A stretch of DNA of 64,000 nucleotides from a bacterium (GTDB lineage: Bacteria; SAR324; JACQKK01), in contig DATFMP010000054.1 in the NCBI GenBank assembly GCA_035266845.1, positions 93,709 to 157,708 on the forward strand. Direction: 5' to 3'. Made by a program: the position numbers and the translations under genes. The stretch's first letter is position 1. Every line of letters starts with the position of its first letter. Under the pieces are notes generated by a model. The model made no database searches. It saw only the letters and a program-made list of their open reading frames with translations, and was not told where the DNA came from. Shown here piece by piece: positions 32,827-64,000 of this stretch.

Positions 32827-33130
32827 GGAGCGTCCTCGGGAATCGCGGGGGGTCGGAGCGCGGGGGGCCCGCCCGGACCCGCCGTCAGCGCCCTTCGGAT
32901 AGCACACTAGCCGCCCGCGCCGCAATGCGGCAAGCGCAGGGCCGATCCGTCCGCGGCACCCCCTGTGGGTTGATGTAGCTTGACTTTTGGCCCGGTTTTC
33001 CGAAGATAGGCAGACTTCCTGCAGAGCCGCCGCGGCAGACGACGCCCGGCCATGCCCGCCCCGGCGGGCTGCGCCGCGTGCGAGCCGGTGGATGCAGGCT
33101 GGCAGGCACCAACGCCAACAAGGACCGCAC

Positions 33131-34258: not shown

Positions 34259-34426
34259 GACGGTCGCGGTCCCGCTCGCGGGTCGGCGCCCTCCGGGCGC
34301 CGCACCCCGCAGCTCCCTACGCCAGTCAGCTCCCGCGGTAATGGCCTTGCGGCCGTGCCGCCTGTCGTACACCGCCCGGCCGCACCAGCGTGCGTCGGCC
34401 GGGCCGCCCATTCGTGAGGCATCGCC

Positions 34427-35563
34427 ATGACGTTGCAGATGCAGATCGCGCCCGTCCCGCCCGAGCAGCGGCAGGCCAAACCACAGGATCCCACCCGACT
34501 GGGCTTCGGCCGGGTGTATACCGACCACATGTTCACGATGCGCTGGAGCGCCGAGCACGGCTGGCACGACGCGCAACTGGGGCCCTTCGAGCCGCTGGCG
34601 CTTTCCCCCGCGGCCATGGTGCTGCACTATGCGCAGACGATCTTCGAGGGCCTCAAGGCCTATCGCACGCCGCAGGGTACCGTGAACCTGTTCCGCCCGG
34701 CGGACAACGCCGAGCGCTTCGACCGCTCGGCCGAGCGCCTGGCCCTGCCACTGCTGCCGCCCGGGGCCTTCGTGGCGGCGGTGGAGGCGCTCGTGGCGCT
34801 GGAGCGGGACTGGGTGCCGCAGGCCCCGGGCACCTCGCTGTACGTCCGCCCGACCCTGATCGCCACCGAGCCCCACCTGGGCGTGCGACCCGCCGCCGAG
34901 GCCCTGTTCTTCGTCATCGCGGGCCCGGTGGGGCCGTACTACCCGGAGGGCTTCGCGCCCGTGCGCATCACAGTGGCCGAACACTACGTGCGCGCCGCGC
35001 CCGGCGGGCTGGGCGCAGCAAAGACGGGTGCCAATTACGCCGCCAGCCTGCTGGCCGCCGAGGAGGCGAAGGCGGAGGGTTACACGCAGGTGCTGTGGCT
35101 CGATGCCATCGAACGCCGCTACGTGGAGGAGGTCGGCGCCATGAACATCGCGTTTAAGATCGGCGGCACCGTGATCGCTCCGCCGGCGAGCGGCACTACC
35201 CTGGCCGGCATCACCATCCGCTCCGCGCTGCACCTGCTGCGGGGCTGGGACGTGTCGGTGGAGGAACGCCGCATCACCATCGACGAGGTGCTGCAGGCCC
35301 ATGCCGACGGCACGCTGGAGGAGGTCTTCGGTGCGGGCACGGCCGCGGTGATCTCGCCCGTGGGCCTGCTGGCCTACCAGGGCCGCCAATACGAGATCGC
35401 GGGGGGCGGCACGGGCCCGCTGGCACAGCGGCTGTTCGATGAGCTGACCGGCATCCAGTATGGCCAGCGCCCCGACCCCGATGGGTGGATCCGTGCAGTG
35501 CCGCCGGCGCCGCCAACACCCCGGAGGCAGGCCCCACTGCCGCTGCCGGCGGCCGGGCGCTGA
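34427..35563 (+). CDS. ilvE: branched-chain amino acid aminotransferase, tandem paralog
   Basis: Collinear with the upstream copy (~60% aa identity by eye). Shares a ~66-nt near-identical DNA stretch with it. Confidence 0.85.
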   Translation: MTLQMQIAPVPPEQRQAKPQDPTRLGFGRVYTDHMFTMRWSAEHGWHDAQLGPFEPLALSPAAMVLHYAQTIFEGLKAYRTPQGTVNLFRPADNAERFDRSAERLALPLLPPGAFVAAVEALVALERDWVPQAPGTSLYVRPTLIATEPHLGVRPAAEALFFVIAGPVGPYYPEGFAPVRITVAEHYVRAAPGGLGAAKTGANYAASLLAAEEAKAEGYTQVLWLDAIERRYVEEVGAMNIAFKIGGTVIAPPASGTTLAGITIRSALHLLRGWDVSVEERRITIDEVLQAHADGTLEEVFGAGTAAVISPVGLLAYQGRQYEIAGGGTGPLAQRLFDELTGIQYGQRPDPDGWIRAVPPAPPTPRRQAPLPLPAAGR

Positions 35564-35834: not shown

Positions 35835-36308
35835 TTGCACGCGCAGCGCAAAAACCTGCTGGATGTCTACCGCGTCCACGATGCGTACCTCGGCATCTAT
35901 CGGGAGGCGTTCGACCGCGTCATGGAGTTGCAGGGCTTCGAGTTGACGCCGGTGCCCGAGGCACCGGAGGTATGGGAGTTCCGCAATCCCGACGAGGCAC
36001 TGCACGGGCGGCTGCTGAACGTGGCGGGCTACCTGCACCCGGATCCGGTGGCGCTGACCACCAAGGGCCGGGCCTACATGATCACGCGCCAGAACTTCAC
36101 CTTGGCGCTGCTGTTTCCCGGATCGCCCTGGCGCCTGCACCTGAACCGCACGCGCTACAAGCTGATTTCCCAGGAGCGGTCGATGCTTTATCCTGTGGAA
36201 TGGCCGCGGGAGATGGTGACACGGGTGATCCGCACGCGCTTCCGCAACCTGGTGATTCTGAACGAGGCCTTCCTGCTGCAGCAGATCGGGCTGCGCGCAC
36301 CGCTCTAA
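35835..36308 (+). CDS. hypothetical protein
   Basis: Protein-like composition versus an R/G/P-rich antisense shadow. Start uncertain (TTG at 35835 or ATG at 35922). Confidence 0.35.
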   Translation: MHAQRKNLLDVYRVHDAYLGIYREAFDRVMELQGFELTPVPEAPEVWEFRNPDEALHGRLLNVAGYLHPDPVALTTKGRAYMITRQNFTLALLFPGSPWRLHLNRTRYKLISQERSMLYPVEWPREMVTRVIRTRFRNLVILNEAFLLQQIGLRAPL

Positions 36309-36439
36309 GCGCGGCACAGGCGCGCACGTCCGATGGGCGGTCGGGTCCCCGTGCGGGGTGTGCCGGCGGCCTGCATCCGGCACGCGGAACCATGGCCACA
36401 CGCAAACCGAAGCACACGCAGTCCACTGCCGGAGAACGC

Positions 36440-37906
36440 ATGGAGCTTTGCGACCACCCCATCCACACCCTGCACGAGCGGCGCCTGGCCAAGGAGATTT
36501 CCTCGGCCGACGTGGCCCGCTCCGTGCTGGCGCGCATCGAGGCCGTGGAGGACCGCGTGCACGCCTTCATTACGCTGACCACGCAGGACGTGCTGCGCCG
36601 CGCCGAGGAGGCGGACGCCCGGCTGGCCCAGGGCAAGCCGCTCTCGCCCATCGACGGCCTGCCCATCGCCCTCAAGGACATCTTCACGACACGGGGCATC
36701 CAGACCACCTGCGGCTCGCGCATCCTGGCGGGCTTCACGCCCCCCTATGATGCGACGGTGGTGGAGCGCCTGACAGCGCAAGGCATGAACCTGGTGGGCA
36801 AGGCGAACATGGACGAGTTCGCCATGGGCTCGTCCACGGAGAACTCCGGCTACGGCCCCACGCACAATCCGTGGGACCTCTCGCGGGTGCCGGGCGGCTC
36901 GTCCGGCGGTTCGGCCGCGGCCGTGGCGGTAGGCGAGGCCTTGGCCGCACTGGGCACGGACACTGGCGGCTCGATCCGCCAGCCCGCGGCGTACACCTCG
37001 CTGGTGGGCCTCAAGCCTACATACGGGCGCGTAAGTCGTTACGGCATGGTGGCCTTCGCCAGTTCGCTGGACCAGGGCGGTGTGATCACCCGCGACACGG
37101 AGGACGCCGCGTTGATGCTGGGTATCATCGCCGGACACGACCCCCGCGACGCCACCAGCGCCCAGGTGCCCGTGCCGGACTACCGGGCGGCGCTGGGCGG
37201 CGACCTCAAGGGCAAGCGGGTCGGCCTCGTGCGCGAGTTCCAGGCCTGGGGCGGCGTGGAAGCCGTGGTGGCGGAGACCTTTCAGGCGAACGTGAAGCAG
37301 TTGGAGGCGCTCGGCGCCGAGGTGCGCGAGGTCTCCCTGCCGTCGCTCGATTACGGCATCGCCGTGTACTACATCCTGGCGCCCAGCGAGGCCAGTTCCA
37401 ACCTGGGTCGCTACGACGGTGTGCGCTATGGGCCGCGCAGCGAGCAAGGCAGCAACCTGCGCGACATGTTCCGCCGCACGCGCGAGGAGGGCTTCGGGCC
37501 GGAGGTGAAGCGCCGCATCATGCTGGGCACCTTCGCGCTTTCCGCGGGCTACTACGACGCGTACTACCTGCGCGCCATGCGCATCCGCGAGCAGTTGCGG
37601 GCAGACTTCCAGCGCGCCTTCGCGGACGTGGACCTGATCGCGTGTCCGCCGGCGCCCATGCCGGCCTTCAAGCTGGGGGAGAAGCTGGACGATCCGTTGC
37701 AGATGTACCTGGTGGATGCTTTCACGCTACCGGTCAACCTGGCCGGGCTGCCTGGGATCAGCGTGCCGGGGGGCTTCACGCCCGAGGGCCTGCCCCTGGG
37801 ACTGCAGCTCATCGCGCCGCACTTCCAGGAAGCCGCGCTGCTGCAGGCCGCGCACGCCTTCGAACAATCCACGGACTACCACACGCGCCGCCCGCCGCTG
37901 ACCTGA
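36440..37906 (+). CDS. gatA: aspartyl/glutamyl-tRNA(Asn/Gln) amidotransferase subunit A
   Basis: Amidase signature GGSSGGSAAAVA, DTGGSIRQPA. GGAG RBS before MELCDHP. gatB/gatC not adjacent. Confidence 0.9.
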   Translation: MELCDHPIHTLHERRLAKEISSADVARSVLARIEAVEDRVHAFITLTTQDVLRRAEEADARLAQGKPLSPIDGLPIALKDIFTTRGIQTTCGSRILAGFTPPYDATVVERLTAQGMNLVGKANMDEFAMGSSTENSGYGPTHNPWDLSRVPGGSSGGSAAAVAVGEALAALGTDTGGSIRQPAAYTSLVGLKPTYGRVSRYGMVAFASSLDQGGVITRDTEDAALMLGIIAGHDPRDATSAQVPVPDYRAALGGDLKGKRVGLVREFQAWGGVEAVVAETFQANVKQLEALGAEVREVSLPSLDYGIAVYYILAPSEASSNLGRYDGVRYGPRSEQGSNLRDMFRRTREEGFGPEVKRRIMLGTFALSAGYYDAYYLRAMRIREQLRADFQRAFADVDLIACPPAPMPAFKLGEKLDDPLQMYLVDAFTLPVNLAGLPGISVPGGFTPEGLPLGLQLIAPHFQEAALLQAAHAFEQSTDYHTRRPPLT

Positions 37907-37962
37907 GGCCCGCGGGGACTGCCATTGCCGGGGGGCGCGCGCCATCTCGCACGCAGGGGGCA

Positions 37963-38250
37963 ATGATCATCGAGGTACGCCAGGAGGACTTCGACTACGC
38001 CCGTGGGGAATGCCCGGACGACGCGCCGTGGTGGATGCTGCAGGAGTTCGCCGCCAATCGCGCCCTGCGCCGCGCCTTCCCCGAGGCGGAGATCATCAAG
38101 GTGGACAGCGCCCGCATGGAAGTGGACGACCGGCGCTTCCACCGCTCGATGCAGCTCTATCTGCGGCGCGGCCCCTATCGCTTCCGCCTGAGCCGCTCCA
38201 AGCTGCAGGTGCGCCTGTACGACGTGCTGCATGTGCTGGGCTGGGGGTAG
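37963..38250 (+). CDS. hypothetical small protein (95 aa)
   Basis: First ATG after the gatA stop, in a different frame. Protein-like composition. Confidence 0.35.
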   Translation: MIIEVRQEDFDYARGECPDDAPWWMLQEFAANRALRRAFPEAEIIKVDSARMEVDDRRFHRSMQLYLRRGPYRFRLSRSKLQVRLYDVLHVLGWG

Positions 38251-38391
38251 TCCACGCTCCCGCCCAACAACCCGCCCATCAAGATTGATCCGGGGAAGCG
38301 GTCGCTCCCCTTGCCCCTCGGTCGACGGGCTATCCGGACCGCCGGGAGCAATTCTTGCGGGGCCGCGCGAGCACCATGCGCGCCGGCGCGG

Positions 38392-38790
38392 CTATTGGCG
38401 ACGCTTCCGGATCCAGCGGATGTTGTGGTCCACGGATTTCCAGCCCTGCTTCCACAGCCGTCCCTCGCCCCAGAGGCTGTGGCCATAGGGATTGGCGGAG
38501 CGTGAGCGGCCGGCTGCGCGCGCCTTCTGACCCTCCTCACGCGCGGAAACCCGCCGCTGCCGACGAGCGTGCTCCTTCAGGCCGCCCAGTTCGTTCCACT
38601 GCAGCATCAGTTCGCGGCGCTCGCGCGGCGTAGCAGCCCGGGCCGCGCGGAGGCGCAGGGCGGCCCGGTGCTTGCGCAGGCGGCGCTTGCGGACGCCGCT
38701 GAGACGGTACATCAGCAGGCCCACCAGCGCGAACAGCAGCCAGACGACGGGCTCCCGCAGGTAGATCCACAGGCTGTCGTCCGCGGGCAC
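38392..38790 (-). CDS. hypothetical membrane-anchored protein (N-terminal TM, Arg-rich cytoplasmic tail)
   Basis: Start assigned to a GTG with a GGAG SD 7 nt upstream. The longer ORF form would initiate inside repeat copy A. Confidence 0.35.
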   Translation of the reverse strand: MPADDSLWIYLREPVVWLLFALVGLLMYRLSGVRKRRLRKHRAALRLRAARAATPRERRELMLQWNELGGLKEHARRQRRVSAREEGQKARAAGRSRSANPYGHSLWGEGRLWKQGWKSVDHNIRWIRKRRQ

Positions 38791-38911
38791 GGCAGCACTC
38801 CAATGCAGTGAACGGGATGGGCGGCCTCCGGCCGCCGGGTCTTGGAGAGCCTTCACTCCCCACGCTTCGCCTTGCAGGAATGGGGCTAGGCTCTGTTTGG
38901 GAAGTTGTTTT

Positions 38912-39092
38912 TTGAGCGGCTGGGCCACTTAGAACCACAAAGAATCCAATGTGGGGGCCGAGGGCTCCCACACCCCAACTACGGGCCTTGACCAAGGCAG
39001 GCGCAGTTCCACCCACAAATGGGGTCCAGGGAGCCTTGCTCCCTGGTGGCGGTATGGGGGCAACGCCCCCTGGCCGACAGGCTTTTCAAAAC
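38912..39092 (+). repeat. ~185-bp multi-hairpin intergenic repeat, copy A (first hairpin degenerate)
   Basis: Aligns by eye with copies at 50215-50405 (reverse) and 57335-57520. Shared core (A/G)AACCAC(A/G)AGAAATCCAA(T/C)G(T/C)GGGGGCC...GGGTCCAG(G/A)GAG...GGGGGCA(A/G).GCCCC...GCTTT. Confidence 0.75.
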
Positions 39093-39097
39093 AGAGG

Positions 39098-39703
39098 CTA
39101 GTACAGGCGATCGCGGATGGATTCCTGGGTCAGGCGCTCGGATTCTTCCACGTCCGTGCCCAACTGATCGGCCAGCATGCGCCCCATGGAGGGGATCGTG
39201 CCGCGCTCCACCTGGCTGGCCGGATCCCACAGCCGCGAGCGGATGAAGGCCTTGGCGCAGTGCAGAAACACCTCGTCCACCTCCACCAGCAGCCCGCTGG
39301 CGGGCGTGCGGCCCCGCACAGCCAGCGGCGCCAGCAATGCCGCATCCGTTGTGATGCGAGCCCGGCCGTTGACGCGCAGGGTTTCGTTCACACCGGGGAT
39401 CATGAACAGCAGGCCCACCTGCGGGTTCTCCAGCACATTGCGCATGCCGTCCAGGCGGTTGTTGCCAGGCCGATCGGGAATGAGCAGCGTGCGGTCGTCC
39501 AGCACGGCCACAAAGCCCGGGGCATCGCCCTTGGGCGAGGTATCCACGGCGCCGTCCACACCCGCCGTGCCCATCACCAGGAATGGGCTGTGCGCGATGA
39601 ACGTGCGGCAATGCGCGTCCAGCGCAGCGAGTTGTTTGCGGACGGCCCGCTCGCCGGGATCACCGTAGAGACCGCGCAGGGCCTCCTCGCTGCGGATTTC
39701 CAT
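39098..39703 (-). CDS. pyridoxamine 5'-phosphate oxidase-family FMN-binding protein
   Basis: Start at MEIRSEEALRGLY. The PNPOx-like split-barrel pattern is my assignment. Confidence 0.6.
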   Translation of the reverse strand: MEIRSEEALRGLYGDPGERAVRKQLAALDAHCRTFIAHSPFLVMGTAGVDGAVDTSPKGDAPGFVAVLDDRTLLIPDRPGNNRLDGMRNVLENPQVGLLFMIPGVNETLRVNGRARITTDAALLAPLAVRGRTPASGLLVEVDEVFLHCAKAFIRSRLWDPASQVERGTIPSMGRMLADQLGTDVEESERLTQESIRDRLY

Positions 39704-55099: not shown

Positions 55100-57169
55100 T
55101 CAGCCATCGCCTGGCGTGCGCACCAGCGGCGGCTCCTCCAGTTGGCAGGGCGGCAGCAGCGCGGGATCGCCCGGCAAGTGCAGAGCCTCGCCCACGGCGC
55201 CGGGGCCGCTGGCCTGCCGATAGGCCGCGCGCAGGCGCTCCAGAATCGGCCCGTCCACCAGCGTGCCGAGGCGGCTCAGCTCAGGACGGGTCGCCAGGTC
55301 GATCAGCTGCAGCCGCACCAGGATGTGCGCGGCTTGACGCAGACAGTTCACGGCGTTGCCCGAGATCTGAAAACTCGTGCCAATGCCCGCGATGCGGTCG
55401 TACAGCCGGTTGTAGAGCTGTCCGCTCTCGCGATCGGCCGCCAGGCGCCTCCGGCCGCGCTCCCCCTCGTAGGGGTAGCCCTGAAAGTTCAGCTCCGGCA
55501 TGGCGTTCACCAGCCGGAGCAGCGCCGGATCGAAGGGCCGCGGCGGCGTGGGGTTGAGAGGATCCACATACTTGGCGTCGTAATCGGGTACAGTCTCCTT
55601 CGGGATCAGACGCGCCAGATCGCTGAATTGCAGGTGCAGCACCTCGCCGGGCCACGGCGGCGTCGCATGCTCATCCTGGGCACAGTAGCAGGGAGGCTCC
55701 CCCGGCCGTTCCGCGGAGGCGGGCAGGTGCAACCGCTCGCGCAGCTCGCGCACAAGCTGGTAGCGCCGTATGCCCATCATCACGTCCGTGGCCGCCAGGG
55801 CGCTGGTGTCGAAGATGTGGTCCAGAGCCGTGCGGGGGTCCGGCTCCGCAGCGGGGGCCTCCAGGGCGGTGGTATAGGCATCCACCAGGATCACCACCCG
55901 CAGCGCCGGTCGCTTTGGCAACGAGGAGTTCGCGGACGGGTCGGACCGGCCCTCGTGGTCGAACACCCGCTCCAGGGCGGTCAGCCCCAGGTTGTCGAAC
56001 ACCCCCGCGTCCATGAGGTGTACGTATTCCGCCGCGTCGCCGCGGTCCTCCGCCCGCGGGCGGTAGCGCCCCAACGTCGTGTAGTTGAACACACCCGGGA
56101 ACGCCGCCGAGGCCATCACCGCACGACCCAGCTCCATCTCGTCCAGGTTCGAGTGCAGACAGCCGAACATGTCGTCGGTGAAGGCGAAGTGCTTGGCGGC
56201 ATCGCGGGCGCGGGCATCGCCGGCGGGCTGCACGCCGCACCGGGCACCGTCCGGCGAGCCCGGCGTGCCCACCGGCCCCATTCCGCCGGGCCGCGGATGT
56301 GTGTTGTTGGTGGCGTTGATCAGCAGATAGGGACGCTGCGGGTTGAGGTCCTCGAAGCGCAGGCCCTGGTACCCGCCCACCGACTGATCGTAGAGATTGT
56401 CGGTCAGCACCTTGGCCATGATGTCGGTGCGGTCGAAGCTGGTGAACCAGTAACGCGGGAAGTTCCACGGCAGGAACCAGCTCCCGAACCACCGCCAAAG
56501 GTAGTTCCGCCCCATGCGATCGAACACCGCCGCCTCGCTCCAGGGCGGGCGGGGCTGCCCCCACAGGGGCGGCGACTCCACGGTGGGTGGACAGGCCCCT
56601 TCCGTCTCCAGCTTCGCGCTGTCGCAGCTCACGGCGTAGTAGGCGGACGCGAGCGAGCCACCGGATACGGACGACATCACGTCCACCTGCCGCAGCAGGT
56701 GCACGCGCTGCAGCTCGAACATCACGGCGGTGGAGAACACAGCGGCGCGACTGCCGCCGCCGGAGAGCGCCAGCCCGATCAGGTTGGCGTCCGGCCGCAC
56801 GGGCGCCGGGCCCGCGGTGACGCACAAACCGTCGCGCCAGGGCGTCGTGCGGGGCGGGGGGCGACCAGTGCCGGCGTCGAACACGGCCTGGCGCTCCACG
56901 ACCGTTCGATAGGCCTCCTCCGTGAAGGCTCGATAGCCTGCCGGATCGGCGGCCGGGCTGAAGGCCGCACGGCAGTCGGCATCGAGCCACCAGGGCACCC
57001 GAAAGTCCGCCATGTACGCCGACGAGGCCACCACGCGCGGATCGAGCTGGCCGACCTTGCGGTGCTGATAGTCCCTGCGCTCAGGATCGTTCCAGTGGCT
57101 CCACAGGCTGCAGGCAGACGTGCCGGCCAGTGCCAGCACGCACGCCGCGACGACGCAGAGGCGGGTCAT
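55100..57169 (-). CDS. patatin-like phospholipase, lipoprotein/exported (689 aa)
   Basis: Signal peptide plus Cys. GLALSGGGSRAAVF oxyanion motif. Ser motif VSGGSLA (GxSxA). Asp motif MDAGVFDNLG. Confidence 0.7.
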   Translation of the reverse strand: MTRLCVVAACVLALAGTSACSLWSHWNDPERRDYQHRKVGQLDPRVVASSAYMADFRVPWWLDADCRAAFSPAADPAGYRAFTEEAYRTVVERQAVFDAGTGRPPPRTTPWRDGLCVTAGPAPVRPDANLIGLALSGGGSRAAVFSTAVMFELQRVHLLRQVDVMSSVSGGSLASAYYAVSCDSAKLETEGACPPTVESPPLWGQPRPPWSEAAVFDRMGRNYLWRWFGSWFLPWNFPRYWFTSFDRTDIMAKVLTDNLYDQSVGGYQGLRFEDLNPQRPYLLINATNNTHPRPGGMGPVGTPGSPDGARCGVQPAGDARARDAAKHFAFTDDMFGCLHSNLDEMELGRAVMASAAFPGVFNYTTLGRYRPRAEDRGDAAEYVHLMDAGVFDNLGLTALERVFDHEGRSDPSANSSLPKRPALRVVILVDAYTTALEAPAAEPDPRTALDHIFDTSALAATDVMMGIRRYQLVRELRERLHLPASAERPGEPPCYCAQDEHATPPWPGEVLHLQFSDLARLIPKETVPDYDAKYVDPLNPTPPRPFDPALLRLVNAMPELNFQGYPYEGERGRRRLAADRESGQLYNRLYDRIAGIGTSFQISGNAVNCLRQAAHILVRLQLIDLATRPELSRLGTLVDGPILERLRAAYRQASGPGAVGEALHLPGDPALLPPCQLEEPPLVRTPGDG

Positions 57170-57334
57170 GGCAGTTCCCCCTTTTGGGCGCCCGGCGGGC
57201 CGCGAGCCACGCCGTCACGGCCGCGGGCGCAGGTGCTGACCCAGCATCGGGCAAACCCGGGCGGGGGTCAACGGGCCCAGGAAGCCCCGCGCGGCAAGGC
57301 ACGCGGCTGGTCAGCGCCGCCAGGTTCTGCTTGG

Positions 57335-57520
57335 GAGTGGGTCGTCAAGCGGCTGGGCCGCTTGAAAAGCACAAGAAATCCAATGCGGGGGCCAAGGGCC
57401 CCCACACCCCCAATACAGACCCAGACCAGGGCCGACGCGATCTCGCCCACAAATAGGGTCCAGGGAGTTCCACTCCCTGGTGGGGGTATGGGGGCAGAGC
57501 CCCTATGGCTGAAGTGCTTT
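57335..57520 (+). repeat. ~185-bp multi-hairpin intergenic repeat, copy C (best preserved)
   Basis: Hairpins CAAGCGGC-tggg-CCGCTTG; GGGGGCC-aag-GGCCCCC; CAGGGAG-ttcca-CTCCCTG; GGGGGCA-gag-CCCC. Confidence 0.75.
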
Positions 57521-57532
57521 CCTGCACACAAC

Positions 57533-58594
57533 CTAGCGCACGAGACCGCGGGCCCGCACGCGCCAGGTCAGTTCGACCTCGCCGCCGCGCACGCCCAGCA
57601 ATTCGTTGTGCAGGTTGGCCACCGTGCAGCAGTGGTTGGGGATCACCGTCACGCGCTCGCCCACCACGGGCTTGCGGACGCAGGCGCTCACGTCCACGTT
57701 GGCGTGTTCCTCGGAGTAGCCATAGATGACCGCCTCCGGATACTCGACGACCGTGCCGTATGTGGCGTCGCGCCAGAGCAGGCGGTCGGCGCTGAGGGTC
57801 TTCGAGCCGCCGTCCAGGATGGCGCGCTCGGCGGTGGGCCGGCTGACGACGGTCATCAGCACGCGCATGGCGCACTCGTCCAGCGTGGCCGTGCCCGCGG
57901 CAAGCGTGTTGCTGTCGTTGAAGACGTAGGTGCCCGCACGATGCTCCGTGATCTGCGGAATCTCGTGCACTCGCCAGGTCTGCGGCGTGCCACCGCCGCT
58001 CACGGTCTCCGCCTCCAGCCCGGCGGCGCCCAGCAAGGCCACGGCCTCGGCCAGGAAGGGCGGCGTGGTCTCTAGGTTCGTGGGAAAGGTCATCAGCCCC
58101 GCGAAGCGCACGCCGGGTATCCGGTCGATCTCCTGCGCCAGCACGAGGGCCTGGGCGGGCGTCTGCACGCCCGTGCGGCCCGCGCCCGTGTCGCACTCGA
58201 TCAGCAGCGGCACCTCCAATCCCGCCGCTGCGGCGGCCTCGCTGATGCCCTGGGCCACCGGGGCGGAGTCCACCGCCACGCTGACCCGACAGCGCCGCGC
58301 CAACGCCGTCAGGCGGGCCAGCTTGGCCGGGCCGATCAGGTTATACGGGATGAAGATGTCGTCGAAGCCCGCATCCGCGAAGACCTCCGCCTCTCCCAGC
58401 TTCTGGCAGGTAATGCCCTGGGCCCCCGCCTCCAGTTGCAGGCGGCCGATCTCAGGGGTCTTGTGCGTCTTGATGTGCGGCCGGAAGCGCAGGCCGTGCG
58501 CATCGCAGTAGGCCTGCATCTTGCGGATGTTCGCCGCCATGATGTCGAGGTCCACCGTGACGATGGGCGTTTCCAGATCCTCCACGCGGGGCAT
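57533..58594 (-). CDS. alanine-racemase-fold PLP enzyme (DSD1 / D-threonine aldolase / D-serine dehydratase-like family)
   Basis: FRPHIKTHK PLP-lysine motif. 353 aa. Immediately downstream of the predicted selenoprotein. Confidence 0.7.
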   Translation of the reverse strand: MPRVEDLETPIVTVDLDIMAANIRKMQAYCDAHGLRFRPHIKTHKTPEIGRLQLEAGAQGITCQKLGEAEVFADAGFDDIFIPYNLIGPAKLARLTALARRCRVSVAVDSAPVAQGISEAAAAAGLEVPLLIECDTGAGRTGVQTPAQALVLAQEIDRIPGVRFAGLMTFPTNLETTPPFLAEAVALLGAAGLEAETVSGGGTPQTWRVHEIPQITEHRAGTYVFNDSNTLAAGTATLDECAMRVLMTVVSRPTAERAILDGGSKTLSADRLLWRDATYGTVVEYPEAVIYGYSEEHANVDVSACVRKPVVGERVTVIPNHCCTVANLHNELLGVRGGEVELTWRVRARGLVR

Positions 58595-58708
58595 GGCCTC
58601 GGCTCCGATGCGGGCACGCGGGCGCGCCCCGGGTTGGCTGCAATGTGCGAGACAACAGCCCCGGTGTAGCGGGCCGGCGGGGGGCGGGTCAACGGCCGGC
58701 GGCGCCGG

Positions 58709-59557
58709 TCAGGCCCCCTCGCTGAAGCGGTGCGGCAGCTCCACCACAGTACCCGGCTCGCGGACGGTGCGCAGCAGATCCAGCGCTGCCGCCACCACCT
58801 CCCGCTGCAGATCTGCCGCGCCGGGTGGCCCGCAGGTGGCGCCGCGCGGGAAGCGGGCCACCGCCGCGCGTGGATAGCATACGCGCCGCACGCGGTCGGC
58901 CATGGTGGCCAGCGCCACGGTGGGGATGCCCGCCGCTTCCACCACTCGCTGGATCAGTCCGCCGGACTGATGGCAGACCGGTCACACAGGCACGTGCAGC
59001 AGCACATCCACGCGGTCCTGGCGCAAGCGCTGCACGATCTGCGGCGCGCTGCGCTCCACGATGTGGTCAGGGCGCGTACAGTAGCCCGAGATGCTGTAGT
59101 GCCTGGAAGCCACCTCGCCAATGACACCTGCCGTCGCCAGCTCGCGCAGCCGCGCGTGGGGATAGACGCAGTTGCGGTCCGTCTCGGCACGCGTGTGGTC
59201 GTAGTGGTCGTGCGCAATGGCCAGCGCCTCCGGCGCCACGCCTTCCGGAAGCTCGCGGAAGCTCCAGTCGCCCTCGATGTCCTCGGCGCGGAACGGCGGC
59301 TGCTCGCCCGGCACATAGAGCCCGGCGGTGCTGAGCAGGGCGACGCGGCACTCGGCCAGCGGCTTGGCCTGCGGTGCCCAAGGGCTCTCCGTGTTCACGG
59401 CAAAGGGATAGGTCTTGAAGGACGCACCCCAGTCCTTGGCCTCCAGCAGGGGCCGCGTGGCCTCGAGCCACGCCGGATAGCGGGAGCGGAACGTCTCCAC
59501 GTCCATAATGTGCACGGCTGCCTCCGGGTCGGACATTGATGGTGGGGGCCACGCCAC
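58709..59557 (-). CDS. predicted selenoprotein, glycine/betaine/sarcosine/D-proline reductase selenoprotein-B-like (GrdB/PrdB family); in-frame TGA (Sec) at 58984..58982
   Basis: Two same-frame ORFs (58982..59557 and 58709..58945) are separated only by TGA. Read-through gives ...LLHVPV-U-PVCHQSGG.... The second ORF has no RBS of its own. A SECIS-like hairpin lies 10 nt downstream. Confidence 0.6.
58953..58971 (-). promoter_or_regulatory. SECIS-like stem-loop (AUCAGUCC-GGC-GGACUGAU) beginning 10 nt 3' of the in-frame UGA
   Basis: Perfect 8-bp stem with a G-rich apical loop ~18 nt from the UGA. This is consistent with the bacterial SECIS geometry described in the literature. Confidence 0.5.
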
Positions 59558-59609
59558 GGCTACGGACGCATCACCCCTCTGCCCGACTGTATCGAACTTG
59601 ACCGATCGG

Positions 59610-61346
59610 TCAACCCTTGGAAGACGCGCGCAGGGCGGGGTCTTCCAGGCGGGCGCGGATGCGGGCGAGCTGCATGAAGCGCACGTCCGGAGGCACGGCG
59701 TGGCGGTCCAGCATGTACGATGTGATCTCGGCGGCCGCCTCCAGCTCCGCGGGCACCACCTTGTTGGCGCCGGCCGTGAGCAGGCCCCGGATATCGCCCA
59801 CGTAGCGCGAGCGGATCACGATGTGCAGATCAGGCGCAATGCGTCGCGCGGCACCGATGGCGCGCAGTGCAGCGCCGGGGTCGTTGATGGCCAGCACCAA
59901 CTCGCGGGCGTGGGGCGCCCCCACAGCCTCCAGCACCTCGGGACTGGTGACGTCGCCGAAGCAGGCCGGCTCGCCGTTGCGGGCAGCGCGGCGCACGTTC
60001 TCCGCGTTGAGATCGACCAGGATGTAGGCGATGCCGGCCTCGCGCAGGGAGTGGGCCAGTTCCAGGCCGACCACCCCCAGGCCCGCCACGATGACGTGAT
60101 CCTGCAAGCCCGCGAACTGCTCGGCGGTCTCCCCCGCCTCGCGCACGCCCAGGTATTGCGTCAGCACGCGGATGCGGCCCGCGCCCGCCGCGATGTGCGG
60201 CCCGGCTGCCAGCGCCAGGGGCGCGATGATCATGGAGAAGATGGCGGCGGCGGAAAGGTTGGCAGCCAGGGCGGCGCCGCCCCAGTGCGCATCCACGATG
60301 CCCGCGCTCTGGCCCGCGCGCAGCAGCACGAAGTAGAACTCGCCCACCTGCGCCAGCCCCGCCGCGGAGAGGATGGACACCCGCGCCGGCAGGCGCATGG
60401 AAAGGCCAGTGAGCAGCACCACCAGGAACTTGCCGGCGATGATGGCCACCAGCAGGCCCACGATGGGCAGGGGATGATCCAACAGCGCGCTGGCATCCAG
60501 CAGCATGCCCACCGAGACGAAGAACACGCTGGTGAGCACCTCGCGGAACGGGAACAGATCCGCCAGGGCCTGGTGCCGGTATTCGCTGCCGGCCACCACC
60601 AGGCCCGCCATGAACGCGCCCAGGGCCAGCGAGATGCCCGCGCTGGAGACGATCCAGGCCGTGCCCAGGCAGACCAGGAACGTGGAGAGCATGAACAGGT
60701 TGCGCTGGCGCGTGCGGGCCACGAGGTGCAGCGCCCGCGGCACGATGATCCGCGCGGCGATGAGCACCCCCGCCAACACCCCCACGGCCTTGCCCAGCGT
60801 CAGCAGCACGTGCATGGCCGAGGTGCCCGTACCGGCCAGGATCGGGATCGCCAGCATCATGGGCACCACGCTGAGGTCCTGAAATACCAGGATGCCCAGC
60901 GTGAGGCGGCCATGGGGCGCTTCCAGTTCACCCCGATCGTTCAGCGCGCGCAGCACAATGGCCGTGCTGGATACGGCCACCAGAAAGCCCAGGAAGATGG
61001 CGCTGGCGGGCGCCATGCCGAAGATGATGGCGAGCACCATGCAGACCAGGATGCTGAGGCCCATCTGCAAGGTGCCGCCAATCAGGATCGGCTGCCAGAG
61101 CCGCCGAACGCGGTCCAGCGAAAGCTCCAGGCCAATGCCGAACAGCAGCAGCACCACGCCCACTTCGGCCAGGATTTCCACGTCGTGCAGATCGCGGATG
61201 AGCCCAGAGCCGTGCGGGCCCACCAGGATGCCGGCGACGATGAACCCCGCGATGGACGGGATGCCGACCTTCTGCAGCACGGCGACCACGACCACGGCCA
61301 CCGCGAAGATCACAACCAGGTCGCGCAGGAAGGCGAGTTCACCCAT
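59610..61346 (-). CDS. Kef-type K+/H+ antiporter (CPA2) with C-terminal TrkA-N/KTN domain
   Basis: 12-13 TM. VIVAGLGVVGLELA Rossmann motif in the C-terminal domain. Confidence 0.85.
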   Translation of the reverse strand: MGELAFLRDLVVIFAVAVVVVAVLQKVGIPSIAGFIVAGILVGPHGSGLIRDLHDVEILAEVGVVLLLFGIGLELSLDRVRRLWQPILIGGTLQMGLSILVCMVLAIIFGMAPASAIFLGFLVAVSSTAIVLRALNDRGELEAPHGRLTLGILVFQDLSVVPMMLAIPILAGTGTSAMHVLLTLGKAVGVLAGVLIAARIIVPRALHLVARTRQRNLFMLSTFLVCLGTAWIVSSAGISLALGAFMAGLVVAGSEYRHQALADLFPFREVLTSVFFVSVGMLLDASALLDHPLPIVGLLVAIIAGKFLVVLLTGLSMRLPARVSILSAAGLAQVGEFYFVLLRAGQSAGIVDAHWGGAALAANLSAAAIFSMIIAPLALAAGPHIAAGAGRIRVLTQYLGVREAGETAEQFAGLQDHVIVAGLGVVGLELAHSLREAGIAYILVDLNAENVRRAARNGEPACFGDVTSPEVLEAVGAPHARELVLAINDPGAALRAIGAARRIAPDLHIVIRSRYVGDIRGLLTAGANKVVPAELEAAAEITSYMLDRHAVPPDVRFMQLARIRARLEDPALRASSKG

Positions 61347-61492
61347 GTGTCGGAATCACCGGCATACGCTGCGGGTTGCGGGGAGCGACGGGATGGATTG
61401 GGCGCCCGTCACGCTGCACTGTCGGGAATCATCGCCGCCCACCATACGGCAGGCACGCACGGCGCACAAGACCGTCCCCCGCGCCGTTGCGG

Positions 61493-64000
61493 TCACAGCA
61501 GCACGGGCTGATCGGCCAGGTCCGGCTCGCCCAGGCGCCGCAGCATCTCCGCACGCACGCCATCACGCAGGGCTACCGCGGCGTTCCAGCCGTTGTCCTC
61601 CGGCTGGAGCGGCGGGGCCAGTTCCATGCGCACGTGCACGCGGCGCGGCAGCCACTGTCCATCGCGCAGCATGGAGCGCGTTCCGCGCAGCACGACCGGC
61701 ACGATGGGTGCGCCACCCTCCACGGCGGCCTGGAAAGCACCCATGTGGAAGGGCAGCAGCCCCGGGTGCCGGCGGAACGTGCCCTCCGGGAAGAACACGA
61801 GCGAGCGACCCGCCTGGAGGGATGCCCCCACGCGCCGGGCGTCCTCCACCCCACGCTGCTTGTCGAAGCGCTCCACGAACTCCGTGGACAGGCGGCGCAG
61901 GAACCAACGCGAGATGAAGCTACCCACCAGTTCGCGCTTGGCCACGAAGCTCCATAGTCCGGGCAGGCCCGCGACGATCATCAGGCCGTCGGTATAGCTG
62001 GAGTGGTTCACTGCCAGCACACAGGGCCGCTCCCGCGGCAGGTGTTCGAGGCCCTGTACGGTCAGCCGGATGCGGGCCAGCTTCAGCAGCAGCCGCCCCG
62101 CCCCGCGCACGACCGTGAAGCGCGTGGCGGCCCCCGGCAGCAGCACGACCAGCAGCCACGTCGGCAGCGCGATCACCAGCAACAGCGCCCACACGTAGAC
62201 GCCATAGGCCGTGTCCGCCACCACGCGCCAGAGCCGGCGCGTCTGGGGCGCCAGTCCGGCCAGCCAGAGCCGCACCACCTGCAGCCACACGGCGCGCGTG
62301 CCGCCGCGGGTCGCGCCCTGCTCATAGAGCAGGCGGCTGGAGGCACGGCGGATCTTGCCGCTGGAGGTCTTGGGCACGGTGTGGGGCGGCGCCAGCACCA
62401 CGTCGTCCAGCGGTGTGCCGAGCAGGTCCACGGCCAATCCCTCCACCCTCATGCGCAGGGCCTCCAGGCGCTCGGGATCACGCTCGCGGGTCTCGGCCAG
62501 GGCCACCAGGCGCTCGGTGCCCGTGCGCGGATCGGTGCTGCCGAACACGGCCACGCAGCCCTTGCGAACGCCTTCCAACTCCCCGATGGCATCCTCCAGC
62601 TCATGGGGATAGATGTTGCGCCCGGCGCGGATGATGATGTCCTTGCGGCGCCCGGTGAGGAAGACGTCGCCACCGGCGATGTAGGCCATGTCGCCGGAAT
62701 CCAGCCACTCCCCGTGCAGCAGGGCCTTGGTGTCCGTCGCGTTGCGGTAGTAGCCGCTGGTGGCCGAGGGGCCCTTGAACTGCAGCCGCCCTTCCTCGCG
62801 CTCGCCCAGTTCCAGGCCAGCCTCGTTCACGACGCGCACCTCGTGGCCCGGCAGCGGCTGGCCGCAGGCGACGAACTCCAGCGCGTGCGGATCGTCCGCC
62901 GCCGCCAGTTCGGCTCGCCCGGCGTGGTTCAGCGCGTCGCGGGAGATGCGGTCCACCAGCGGGTCGCGCCCCAGCGGCGGGAATGCCAGACCCACTGAGC
63001 ACTCGGCCAGGCCGTAGACCGGCTTCATGGCATCGTGCCGCAGCCCGTACTTCGCAAATCGCTCGGTGAAGCGCCGCAGCGTGCCGGGAATCACCGGCTC
63101 GGCGCCGTTGAAGGCCACGCGCCACGAGCTGAGGTCCAGCCCCGCGAGTTGCTCATCGCTGAGGCGCTTGAGGCACAGCTCGTAGGCGAAGTTGGGACCA
63201 CCGGAAAGCGTGCCGCGGTGCTCATGGATGGCCCACAGCCAGCGCTCCGGGCGCGCCAGAAAGGTGAGCGGCGACATCAGGAACAGCGGCACGGAGAAGT
63301 ACATGCTGCCTAGCCACGCGCCGATGAGCCCCATGTCGTGGTAGAGCGGCAGCCAGCTCACGAACACGTCCGTGGAGTCCGCCTGCAGGCCGCGGCCCAT
63401 TGCGCGGATGTTGGCCAGCAGGTTGTCGTGGGTGAGCACGACACCCTTGGGGTTGCCCGTGCTGCCCGAAGTGTATTGCAGGTGGCCGATGTCCGAGCCC
63501 TGCCCGGCATGCCGGGGCAGCGCCGCCCCCTCGGGGCGCAGCTCGTCCGGGGTGACGATGTGCTGCAGGGAGAGCACCTGCATGCGCAGCAGCCGCGCGG
63601 CGATCTTGGCCTCGGGCACCGTGATGAGGATCGCCGCCCGGGCGTTGTCCAGGATGCCCGCGTGGCGCCGCAGGTGGTCCTCGATCTGCGAAGGCCGCGC
63701 CGGCGGGTAGATGGGCACCGGAATGCCCCCGGCCATCAGCACGCCCATGAAGCTGTGGAAGTACTCCAGGCAGCTTGGCAGCATGATCGCCACGGGCTGC
63801 CCCGGCCGCAGGTCGCGCTCCAGCAGGCCGGCCGCCGTGCGCTGCGCATCGGCGAAGAGGTCGCCATAGGTCATCACCTGCGGCCCGCCATCCTCGCCCA
63901 GCAGCGTGATGTGCGGCCGCTCGGCATGGGCGTTGACGTGCCAGTCCAGCACGTCCATCAGTGTGGCGGCCTGGTCCGGCGCGGCCTCCACGGCGGCCAG
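61493..64000 (-). CDS. fusion protein: N-terminal fatty acyl-AMP ligase / acyl-ACP synthetase, TM segment, C-terminal PlsC-type acyltransferase (5' end at or beyond window edge)
   Basis: YTSGSTGNPKGV AMP-binding motif. NHSSYTD HX4D acyltransferase motif. FFPEGT. The reading frame is open to position 64000. Confidence 0.8.
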   Translation of the reverse strand: MAAVEAAPDQAATLMDVLDWHVNAHAERPHITLLGEDGGPQVMTYGDLFADAQRTAAGLLERDLRPGQPVAIMLPSCLEYFHSFMGVLMAGGIPVPIYPPARPSQIEDHLRRHAGILDNARAAILITVPEAKIAARLLRMQVLSLQHIVTPDELRPEGAALPRHAGQGSDIGHLQYTSGSTGNPKGVVLTHDNLLANIRAMGRGLQADSTDVFVSWLPLYHDMGLIGAWLGSMYFSVPLFLMSPLTFLARPERWLWAIHEHRGTLSGGPNFAYELCLKRLSDEQLAGLDLSSWRVAFNGAEPVIPGTLRRFTERFAKYGLRHDAMKPVYGLAECSVGLAFPPLGRDPLVDRISRDALNHAGRAELAAADDPHALEFVACGQPLPGHEVRVVNEAGLELGEREEGRLQFKGPSATSGYYRNATDTKALLHGEWLDSGDMAYIAGGDVFLTGRRKDIIIRAGRNIYPHELEDAIGELEGVRKGCVAVFGSTDPRTGTERLVALAETRERDPERLEALRMRVEGLAVDLLGTPLDDVVLAPPHTVPKTSSGKIRRASSRLLYEQGATRGGTRAVWLQVVRLWLAGLAPQTRRLWRVVADTAYGVYVWALLLVIALPTWLLVVLLPGAATRFTVVRGAGRLLLKLARIRLTVQGLEHLPRERPCVLAVNHSSYTDGLMIVAGLPGLWSFVAKRELVGSFISRWFLRRLSTEFVERFDKQRGVEDARRVGASLQAGRSLVFFPEGTFRRHPGLLPFHMGAFQAAVEGGAPIVPVVLRGTRSMLRDGQWLPRRVHVRMELAPPLQPEDNGWNAAVALRDGVRAEMLRRLGEPDLADQPVLL

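What the first reader, a model, noticed from the sequence alone, without database searches (positions are those of the whole stretch)
57533..61346. Selenoprotein-B-like gene sits between a Kef antiporter and a DSD1/alanine-racemase-fold PLP enzyme
kef (59610..61346), the predicted selenoprotein (58709..59557) and the DSD1/D-threonine-aldolase-like gene (57533..58594) are co-oriented, with 52-bp and 114-bp gaps.

In Stickland organisms, selenoprotein B reductases partner with amino-acid racemases/epimerases and substrate-specific subunits. Here the only nearby amino-acid-handling enzyme is an alanine-racemase-fold PLP protein acting on D-Ser/D-Thr-type substrates. No grdA/grdE/prdA-like genes are present. 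This could be an uncharacterised reductase module coupled to a D-amino-acid/hydroxy-amino-acid aldolase or dehydratase.
Basis: inference. Interest (0 to 1): 0.55.

Follow-up and report, generated by a model that had tools for sequence, protein, structure and literature searches.

The report
Stand-alone PrdB-like selenoprotein, lineage-limited DSD1 neighbour
The gene really does encode a selenocysteine protein related to proline/glycine reductase subunit B, but it belongs to an already catalogued family of unknown function, has its own promoter, and lies next to the D-amino-acid PLP enzyme only in one narrow bacterial lineage.

Summary
On the minus strand a CPA2/Kef antiporter, a PrdB-like gene with an in-frame TGA and a D-TA/DSD1-family PLP enzyme are co-oriented, with the stated gaps.

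The TGA is a real Sec codon:
- Cys homologues carry CPVCHQS where this protein has U-P-V-C-H-Q-S.
- 13 distinct relatives keep TGA at the same codon.
- All keep an 8-bp hairpin 11 nt downstream, with compensatory changes. Two Cys forms lack it.

It is not D-proline reductase. TIGR04483 scores 145 against a cutoff of 300, and the window holds no PrdA, GrdA or GrdE.

The family is the UxxC "PrdB" group, known from ocean selenoproteome surveys since 2005.

DSD1 follows the gene in 7 (plus 1 diverged) of 20 distinct Sec-clade contexts and in 0 of 6 more distant ones. Two loci have operon-like gaps of 5-18 nt. Close relatives lack DSD1. The upstream FAAL-acyltransferase is equally syntenic. The DSD1 orthologue group extends far beyond this lineage, with an unchanged active site.

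A conserved palindrome, TTGACC-N4-GGTCAA, overlaps a sigma-70-like promoter directly upstream of the selenoprotein gene. This separates it from kef.

Functional coupling to DSD1 is possible (about 0.2) but unproven.

The parts
59610..61346 (-). CPA2-family K+/H+ antiporter with a C-terminal KTN (TrkA_N) domain (Kef-like). It is an upstream neighbour, not part of the selenoprotein unit.
   Evidence: Pfam Na_H_Exchanger 2.5e-60 and TrkA_N 9e-20. NCBIfam KefC scores 319 bits, below the 752 cutoff. Present upstream in 8 related locus types. Absent in L047, L007 and L030.
59598..59613 (.). Perfect 16-bp palindrome TTGACCGATCGGTCAA, operator-like. It overlaps the kef stop codon and the -35 element of the selenoprotein promoter.
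   Evidence: It is the only match in the window. The half-sites TGAC and GTCAA are invariant and the central 4 nt vary across 11 distinct loci, including loci without kef. It occurs once per locus, always just upstream of the PrdB-like gene.
59586..59613 (-). Sigma-70-like promoter, TTGACC-16 nt-TACAGT, for the PrdB-like gene.
   Evidence: It is the only promoter-like site found in 57000..62000 on either strand. Shuffles give a mean of 0.3. A -10-like TAnAnT is conserved in most of the 11 aligned upstream regions.
58709..59515 (-). PrdB-like selenoprotein gene, about 268 codons. Alternative starts are GTG 59557 (longest ORF) and ATG 59506 (NCBI call). The redox motif is U-P-V-C.
   Evidence: Translation. 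Pfam GRDB 39 bits. TIGR04483 PrdB 145.5 bits over model positions 16-234 of 238, below the cutoff of 300. tblastn alignments run through the TGA in more than 20 loci.
58982..58984 (-). UGA selenocysteine codon.
   Evidence: It aligns with the first Cys of CPVCHQS in full-length homologues. TGA sits at the same codon in 13 distinct relatives and TGT in two Cys forms.
58953..58971 (-). bSECIS-like hairpin AUCAGUCC-GGC-GGACUGAU, starting 11 nt after UGA.
   Evidence: 99% of cells pair in 13 distinct sequences. Two pairs show compensatory changes (U-A to C-G, G-C to A-U), in 8 cells, against 0 of 500 shuffles. Slid registers pair at 5-46%. The Cys forms L015 and L023 lack it. The single-sequence fold is not exceptional (z = -0.75).
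58663..58692 (-). Conserved intergenic motif TTGACC-N18-TACACC between the selenoprotein stop and the DSD1 start. It may be a weak separate promoter for DSD1.
   Evidence: Seen by eye in the window, L024, L032, L006 and L037/L048. It was not called by the consensus scan, so its status is uncertain.
57533..58594 (-). D-TA/DSD1-family fold-type III PLP enzyme, with PLP lysine in HIKTHK and a metal motif PNHCC.
   Evidence: Pfam Ala_racemase_N and D-ser_dehydrat. The closest solved structure is D-threonine aldolase 4v15, E 2.6e-57, where H-V-D aligns with H-C-C here. The motifs are invariant in 14 orthologues down to 56% identity.
57382..57408 (-). Terminator-like GC-rich hairpin (12 pairs) followed by a T-rich tail, 125 nt after the DSD1 stop.
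   Evidence: No terminator-like site was found between the selenoprotein gene and DSD1.

Best explanation
The central gene encodes a genuine, stand-alone selenoprotein of the GrdB/PrdB superfamily. It is about 268 aa, PrdB-sized and colinear with PrdB.

Shown:
- UGA at 58984..58982 is decoded as Sec with the help of a conserved hairpin 11 nt downstream.
- Sec sits in a U-P-V-C motif. In a confident model of a Cys homologue, this motif lies at the junction of a beta-strand and the N-cap of an alpha-helix in a Rossmann-like alpha/beta domain.
- The gene carries its own sigma-70-like promoter, overlapped by a conserved TTGACC-N4-GGTCAA palindrome. This palindrome travels with the gene whatever lies upstream.

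Inferred:
- The Sec selenolate attacks an oxidised or electrophilic substrate.
- Cys+3 resolves the adduct as a selenenylsulfide.
- A cellular thiol system re-reduces it.
- The palindrome is a repressor operator.

The protein is not D-proline or glycine reductase, because no pyruvoyl subunit (PrdA/GrdE) or GrdA accompanies it. Kef and the DSD1-type PLP enzyme are syntenic neighbours within one narrow lineage (relatives include SAR324 and Lambdaproteobacteria MAGs). DSD1 may be co-transcribed in some members, but it is dispensable in cis.
For: Sec/Cys alignment.

TGA plus a covarying hairpin in 13 distinct loci, and no hairpin in two Cys forms.

Family assignment: PF07355, and TIGR04483 below its cutoff.

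Structure model of P0043: pLDDT 87, pTM 0.86, with CxxC at the junction of strand 163-167 and helix 171-186.

Promoter and palindrome.

Variable neighbourhoods.

No PrdA, GrdA, GrdE or Sel genes among the window genes scanned.

The family is listed as the UxxC 'proline reductase PrdB' group, among the most abundant selenoprotein families in Sargasso Sea and GOS data (PMC1088965, PMC2398784).
Against: No substrate, reductant or regulator has been identified.

The Sec machinery (selA, selB, selD, tRNA-Sec) is not in the window, so decoding rests on comparative evidence.

The DSD1 adjacency persists while the other flanks change, and it is operon-tight in L010 and L047. A stand-alone reading does not predict this.

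No promoter-consensus hit and no terminator separate the selenoprotein gene from DSD1 in the window.
Confidence: 0.6

Rival explanations
1. The PrdB-like selenoprotein and the DSD1-type PLP enzyme form a two-gene functional module, transcribed from the palindrome-controlled promoter through to the terminator after DSD1. The PLP enzyme would activate a D- or beta-hydroxy-amino acid as an aldimine or aminoacrylate, taking the role that the pyruvoyl group of PrdA/GrdE plays in Stickland reductases. The Sec/Cys pair would then carry out a reductive or beta-replacement step.
For: The two genes are on the same strand and adjacent in 7 (plus 1 diverged) distinct contexts, spanning 53-74% PrdB-like identity.

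Gaps are 5 nt in L047 and 18 nt in L010.

The pair persists while kef, SDR, patatin, NmrA and SBP neighbours vary.

The two DSD1 orthologues at 70% identity or above that were looked up independently are next to a PrdB-like gene. The one at 65% is not.

In the window, one promoter-like site and one terminator-like site bracket exactly this pair.
Against: Twelve of 20 Sec-clade contexts and 6 of 6 more distant ones lack DSD1. These include L020, where NmrA follows directly, and L007 and L030.

FAAL-AT and AKR are equally syntenic in the same lineage, so inherited gene order suffices.

DSD1 belongs to a huge orthologue group with invariant catalytic motifs and no lineage-specific change.

A conserved promoter-like motif lies between the two genes in five lineages.

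No precedent was found in the literature search.
Confidence: 0.22
2. It is the PrdB subunit of a true D-proline (or glycine/betaine/sarcosine) reductase, with its partner genes lying elsewhere in the genome.
For: The best NCBIfam hit is TIGR04483 PrdB, colinear over 219 of 238 model positions, and the UxxC motif is present. Public pipelines name relatives 'D-proline reductase (dithiol) PrdB'.
Against: The score is 145.5 against the equivalog cutoff of 300. GrdB, GrdF and GrdH models score about 50 against cutoffs of 600-800.

No PrdA/GrdE (pyruvoyl proprotein), GrdA, PrdC or proline racemase was found in the 64-kb window or in any of about 26 related contexts.

The surrounding genes are housekeeping genes of a high-GC, non-clostridial organism.
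Confidence: 0.03
3. The TGA is a real stop codon. The locus is a truncated or pseudogenised GrdB-family gene followed by an unrelated short ORF.
For: Public annotation stops at the TGA (HKI98516.1, 174 aa). The single-sequence fold of the hairpin is not exceptional.
Against: The downstream 91 codons are conserved in frame in more than 20 loci and align with the C-terminal half of Cys-containing homologues. The TGA aligns exactly with a Cys. The hairpin covaries.
Confidence: 0.02

Closest known systems
'Proline reductase PrdB' UxxC selenoprotein family of environmental selenoproteome surveys (Zhang et al. 2005, PMC1088965; Zhang & Gladyshev 2008, PMC2398784)
   Same: Assigned to pfam07355, with a UxxC motif. 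Mostly Sec rather than Cys forms. Found in non-clostridial, environmental bacteria and truncated at Sec in databases. The surveys report 42 genes in the Sargasso Sea and 235 in GOS.
   Different: I could not align against those specific sequences. The window's relatives come from groundwater, soil and sediment-type metagenomes and from SAR324/Lambdaproteobacteria MAGs, not from surface ocean. The passages of those papers that I read lump the family with D-proline reductase.
D-proline reductase subunit PrdB (TIGR04483; Clostridium sticklandii / C. difficile)
   Same: Similar size. Colinear over almost the whole model. Sec in UxxC. Same superfamily.
   Different: Scores less than half the equivalog cutoff. 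It has an N-terminal extension of about 35-45 aa. There is no PrdA pyruvoyl subunit, no PrdC/D/E and no proline racemase nearby. It is monocistronic with its own promoter, or paired with a PLP enzyme.
Glycine/sarcosine/betaine reductase protein B (GrdB/GrdF/GrdH; PF07355, TIGR01917/01918)
   Same: Homologous over the C-terminal half of GrdB, including the Sec-containing segment. The NCBI product name for this gene uses this family.
   Different: GrdB is about 435 aa, and this protein lacks its N-terminal 195 residues or so. There is no GrdA, GrdE or GrdC/D. Scores are about 50 bits against cutoffs of 65-800.
D-threonine aldolase / D-serine dehydratase (DSD1) / D-3-hydroxyaspartate aldolase family (PDB 4v15, 7dib, 6qkb, 3wqc, 3anu)
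   Same: The neighbouring gene has the same two-domain fold-type III architecture, a PLP lysine and a C-terminal metal-binding His motif.
   Different: H-C-C replaces the H-x-D of D-threonine aldolase in the alignment to 4v15. From memory, a His/Cys metal site is the dehydratase-type arrangement. Substrate is unknown. BhcC scores 213 against a cutoff of 690.

Membership tests
Bacterial selenoprotein (Sec-decoded UGA) | The in-frame UGA aligns with Cys in homologues. | tested here: met
   U aligns with the first Cys of CPVCHQS in 17 full-length homologues. Relatives carry TGA or TGT at the same codon.
Bacterial selenoprotein (Sec-decoded UGA) | A bSECIS hairpin lies shortly downstream of UGA, with G in the apical loop. 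| tested here: met
   An 8-bp stem starts 11 nt after UGA, with loop GGC. 99% of cells pair and 2 pairs covary in 13 sequences. The spacing and loop criteria are from my own knowledge of the bSECIS model.
Bacterial selenoprotein (Sec-decoded UGA) | The host has selA, selB, selC and selD. | not testable with these tools
   None is in the 64-kb window. The rest of the genome was not available.
D-proline reductase PrdB (TIGR04483 equivalog) | The score reaches the equivalog cutoff of 300 bits. | tested here: not met
   145.5 bits.
D-proline reductase PrdB (TIGR04483 equivalog) | Accompanied by the PrdA pyruvoyl proprotein and other prd genes. | tested here: not met
   No such gene in the window or in about 26 related contexts.
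D-proline reductase PrdB (TIGR04483 equivalog) | UxxC redox motif. | tested here: met
   U-P-V-C.
Glycine reductase protein B, GrdB (TIGR01917) / subfamily TIGR01918 | Full-length protein of about 430 aa that reaches the model cutoffs, with grdA and grdE adjacent. | tested here: not met
   47.6 bits against 602, and 53.4 against 65.45. Only model positions 196-431 are matched. No grdA or grdE (as above).
GRDB superfamily (Pfam PF07355) | Pfam gathering score. | tested here: met
   39 bits against a cutoff of 22, E 8e-10.
D-TA/DSD1 family PLP enzyme (neighbour gene) | Ala_racemase_N plus D-ser_dehydrat domains, a PLP lysine and a metal-binding His motif. | tested here: met
   Both Pfam domains score above their cutoffs. 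HIKTHK and PNHCC are invariant in orthologues. 4v15 matches at E 2.6e-57.
3-hydroxy-D-aspartate aldolase BhcC (NF045642) | Equivalog cutoff of 690 bits. | tested here: not met
   212.9 bits.
Glutathione-gated KefB/KefC | Equivalog cutoffs of 752 and 804 bits. | tested here: not met
   319 and 270 bits. It is a generic CPA2 transporter with a KTN domain.

The most novel reading that the evidence does not exclude
In this lineage, the PrdB-like selenoprotein and the DSD1-type PLP enzyme (possibly with a following NAD(P)H-dependent NmrA/SDR protein) make up a new kind of amino-acid reductase. PLP would replace the pyruvoyl cofactor of Stickland reductases. This would give the first functional handle on the abundant orphan 'PrdB' selenoproteins of non-fermenting environmental bacteria. 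The whole unit would be controlled by a repressor that binds TTGACC-N4-GGTCAA.
Probability: 0.12. Interest if true: 0.8.

Novelty: new member of a known kind. Interest (0 to 1): 0.38.

Why it matters
UxxC "PrdB" selenoproteins are among the most abundant selenoprotein families in ocean metagenomes. The members examined here have no PrdA partner, so the family name probably does not describe their function.

This locus adds three concrete points:
- A clean comparative proof of Sec decoding for a clade that public annotation truncates.
- A conserved promoter/operator that defines the gene as its own regulated unit.
- A lineage-limited, sometimes operon-tight pairing with a D-amino-acid PLP enzyme, which gives a testable but weak functional lead.

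If the pairing is only synteny, the locus is an ordinary member of a known orphan family.

Tried and rejected

**Structure of the window protein itself.** I modelled P0043 instead, which is 41% identical.

**Single-sequence fold of the SECIS region.** It was not distinguishable from shuffles (z = -0.75). Only the comparative analysis was informative.

**RNA scans.** ARAGORN and Rfam over the whole window found nothing, including no tRNA-Sec.

**Sec or Stickland partners.** Pfam over the predicted genes across the window found none.

**Limited sampling.** The genome contigs and metagenome-contig scans returned only 9 and 19 loci, many of them short. Neighbourhood statistics therefore rest on about 26 distinct contexts.

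**Literature.** A search for 'PrdB-like' returned nothing.

**MerR-type activator site for the palindrome.** I rejected this because the promoter spacer is 16 nt, not 19-20 nt. This rests on my own knowledge.

**CRP/FNR-type site.** Its 5-N6-5 geometry also fits the palindrome. I could not test this.
Full report
**Observation**

On the minus strand the window carries, in order:
- a fatty-acyl-AMP ligase/acyltransferase fusion (61493..63991, cut by the window end);
- a CPA2/Kef-type antiporter with a KTN domain (59610..61346);
- a GRDB-family gene interrupted by one TGA (58709..59557 as the longest reading);
- a D-TA/DSD1-family PLP enzyme (57533..58594);
- then a patatin-like protein, an SDR and an aldo-keto reductase.

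Homologues start M-Q-I-M-D. A GGAGG precedes GTG 59515, so the true start is probably 59515 or 59506.

**The selenoprotein is real**

Read through, the frame gives ...LLHVPV-U-PVCHQSGGLIQRVVEAAGIPTV....
- In 17 full-length homologues the position of the TGA is the first Cys of a conserved CPVCHQS motif.
- Closer homologues in the protein database (51-73% identical) all end at 174-193 residues. They are truncated at the same codon.
- At the DNA level, 13 distinct relatives have TGA at that codon, and the reading frame stays conserved beyond it. The two Cys forms with full downstream sequence have TGT.
- An 8-bp hairpin, AUCAGUCC-GGC-GGACUGAU, starts eleven nucleotides after the UGA. Across 13 distinct sequences 99% of cells pair.
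- Two of its pairs change on both sides (U-A to C-G, G-C to A-U), in 8 cells. No shuffle out of 500 reached this, and registers slid by 1-3 nt pair at only 5-46%.
- The compensatory changes fall partly on synonymous sites: CAG/CAA pairs with CUG/UUG.
- The two Cys forms, L015 and L023, have no such hairpin.
- The public record HKI98516.1 stops at the Sec codon.

**What family it belongs to**

Pfam GRDB is passed: 39 bits against a cutoff of 22. The best NCBIfam model is D-proline reductase PrdB (TIGR04483). It is colinear over positions 16-234 of 238 but scores 145.5 bits against a cutoff of 300. The GrdB, GrdF and GrdH models match only their C-terminal halves, at about 50 bits.

I found no PrdA/GrdE, GrdA, PrdC, proline racemase, SelA, SelB, SelD or tRNA among the predicted genes scanned across the 64-kb window. 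The window otherwise holds housekeeping genes: the plsX-fabD-fabG-fabF cluster, era, an H+-pyrophosphatase, ftsH, psd, rlmN and others.

The protein is therefore a PrdB-like member of the superfamily, not a D-proline or glycine reductase subunit.

A profile search of 1.84 billion cluster representatives finds 4,577 relatives at E<=0.001 and 349 at E<=1e-30.

The literature already lists a UxxC "proline reductase PrdB" family (pfam07355) among the most abundant selenoprotein families in ocean data. There are 42 genes in the Sargasso Sea and 235 in GOS (PMC1088965, PMC2398784). Later reviews repeat the D-proline reductase label.

**Structure**

No solved structure is related by sequence, with either the single protein or the profile.

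A model of the closest full-length Cys homologue, P0043 (41% identical), is confident: pLDDT 87, pTM 0.86. The fold is a Rossmann-like alpha/beta domain. The CxxC sits between strand 163-167 and the N-cap of helix 171-186. From my own knowledge, that is the usual position for a redox-active pair.

From this I infer the mechanism. The Sec selenolate acts as nucleophile, Cys+3 resolves to a selenenylsulfide, and a thiol system re-reduces it. None of this is shown.

**Own promoter and operator**

The only sigma-70-like site in 57-62 kb is TTGACC-16 nt-TACAGT at 59613..59586, directly upstream of the selenoprotein gene. Its -35 hexamer is the left half of a perfect palindrome, TTGACCGATCGGTCAA (59598..59613). 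This palindrome is unique in the window and overlaps the kef stop codon.
- The same element lies upstream of the PrdB-like gene in 11 distinct loci.
- The half-sites are invariant and the central four bases vary.
- It is present in L047 and L030, where the upstream gene is the acyl-AMP ligase fusion rather than kef, and in the SAR324 locus L010.

The selenoprotein gene therefore starts a transcription unit of its own, and kef is outside it. I infer that the palindrome is a repressor operator because it spans the -35 element and the spacer.

**Is DSD1 recurrently adjacent?**

I collected about 26 distinct contexts.

DSD1 follows the PrdB-like gene in these Sec-clade contexts:
- the window;
- L001-4/L024;
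- L005/6/9;
- L032;
- L010 (18-nt gap);
- L047 (5-nt gap);
- L037/L048, where an NmrA-like gene follows DSD1;
- in diverged form (52% identity, after a small membrane-protein ORF), L028.

Reverse look-ups of DSD1 orthologues at 76% and 70% identity both landed beside a PrdB-like gene. One at 65% (L049) did not.

DSD1 is missing in these contexts:
- L020/21 (kef-PrdBl-NmrA);
- L007/L011 (FAAL-AT-PrdBl-small membrane protein-HicB-AKR);
- L030 and L008;
- L012 and L031 (a methyltransferase follows);
- L033 and L035;
- L017 and L018/19/36;
- L013 and L039;
- the more distant members: L014 (contig ends within the gene), L015, L016, L023, L043/44 and L045/46.

On a neighbour-joining tree, the DSD1-linked loci lie in or near the subclade that carries the palindrome. 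L037 is the exception, and its upstream region is unknown.

In the same lineage, the acyl-AMP ligase fusion sits upstream in 7 contexts, and an aldo-keto reductase stays nearby. The whole region is syntenic with indels.

The DSD1 orthologue group itself is very large: more than 7,134 clusters at E<1e-60, many from Chloroflexi at 56-64% identity. The PLP lysine motif HIKTHK and the metal motif PNHCC are invariant throughout, so the linked copies carry no special feature.

The closest solved enzyme is D-threonine aldolase 4v15 (E 2.6e-57). H-V-D there aligns with H-C-C here. From my own knowledge, this resembles the His/Cys metal site of D-serine and D-threo-3-hydroxyaspartate dehydratases.

**Weighing**

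For coupling:
- the pair persists while other flanks change;
- two loci have operon-tight gaps;
- in the window, one promoter-like and one terminator-like site (57408..57382) bracket exactly the pair, with nothing called between them.

Against coupling:
- DSD1 is dispensable in cis in close relatives;
- unrelated neighbours are equally syntenic;
- DSD1 belongs to an ordinary, widespread orthologue group;
- a conserved TTGACC-N18-TACACC motif lies between the two genes in five lineages;
- no precedent was found in the literature search.

I put a functional selenoprotein-DSD1 module at about 0.2. I put the stand-alone reading, with inherited synteny, at about 0.6.

**Verdict**

The selenoprotein call is correct and well supported. 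The family is known but functionally orphan. The proposed coupling to DSD1 is a legitimate but weakly supported, lineage-limited lead. Kef is not part of the unit.

The new details are the covariation-supported SECIS hairpin for this clade and the conserved palindromic promoter/operator.

Noticed in passing
window 59598..59613 (also L001 5904-5919, L005 5326-5341, L047 4087-4102 and others): A perfect palindrome, TTGACCGATCGGTCAA, overlaps the -35 element of the selenoprotein promoter and the kef stop codon. The half-sites are invariant and the central 4 nt vary in 11 loci. It occurs once per locus. No regulator was identified.
   Followed up: partly
L007 6852-7358, L028 6720-7109, L008 11159-11533: A conserved multi-pass membrane protein ORF of about 130 aa or more (50-52% identical between loci) lies directly downstream of the PrdB-like gene in three distinct loci. 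It is not present in the window. The pipeline whose gene calls I saw did not call it in L007.
   Followed up: partly
window 61493..64000 (-), and L001 1196-4024, L047 1140-3980: A fusion protein of PP-binding, fatty-acyl-AMP ligase and PlsC-type acyltransferase domains (about 942 aa, with its N-terminus cut by the window end). It is the most persistently syntenic upstream neighbour of the selenoprotein gene. Its domain order is the reverse of E. coli Aas (own knowledge).
   Followed up: no
L048 1522-2436 and L020 6823-7710: An NmrA-like NAD(P)-binding protein follows DSD1 in L048 (10-nt gap) and follows the PrdB-like gene directly in L020 (18-nt gap). This suggests an ancestral PrdBl-DSD1-NmrA order, with DSD1 lost in L020.
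   Followed up: no
L012 4579-6660, L018 1846-3777, L013 7797-8684: Cyclic-nucleotide genes lie near PrdB-like genes in three outlying loci: a GAF-cyclase-HD protein, a guanylate/adenylate cyclase and a Crp-family regulator. This may be coincidence. The 5-N6-5 geometry of the palindrome would also fit a CRP-type site (own knowledge).
   Followed up: no
window 55100..57169 (-): A patatin-like phospholipase of 689 aa lies between DSD1 and the SDR. It is absent at the corresponding place in the closest syntenic loci (L001-4), so it looks like a local insertion.
   Followed up: no
window 32984..34255 and 34418..35560 (+): Two tandem class IV aminotransferase genes (the D-amino-acid / branched-chain aminotransferase fold). 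This is another D-amino-acid-related function, about 22 kb from the finding.
   Followed up: no
window about 36300..39100: A stretch of about 2.8 kb in which no candidate ORF matched Pfam and the GC3-based gene call was ambiguous. There was no Rfam hit either.
   Followed up: no
window 58982..59506 (-): Public annotation (HKI98516.1, 'glycine/sarcosine/betaine reductase selenoprotein B family protein', 174 aa) ends at the Sec codon. In related loci the C-terminal 91 codons are unannotated or called as a separate small ORF (69-93 aa).
   Followed up: yes
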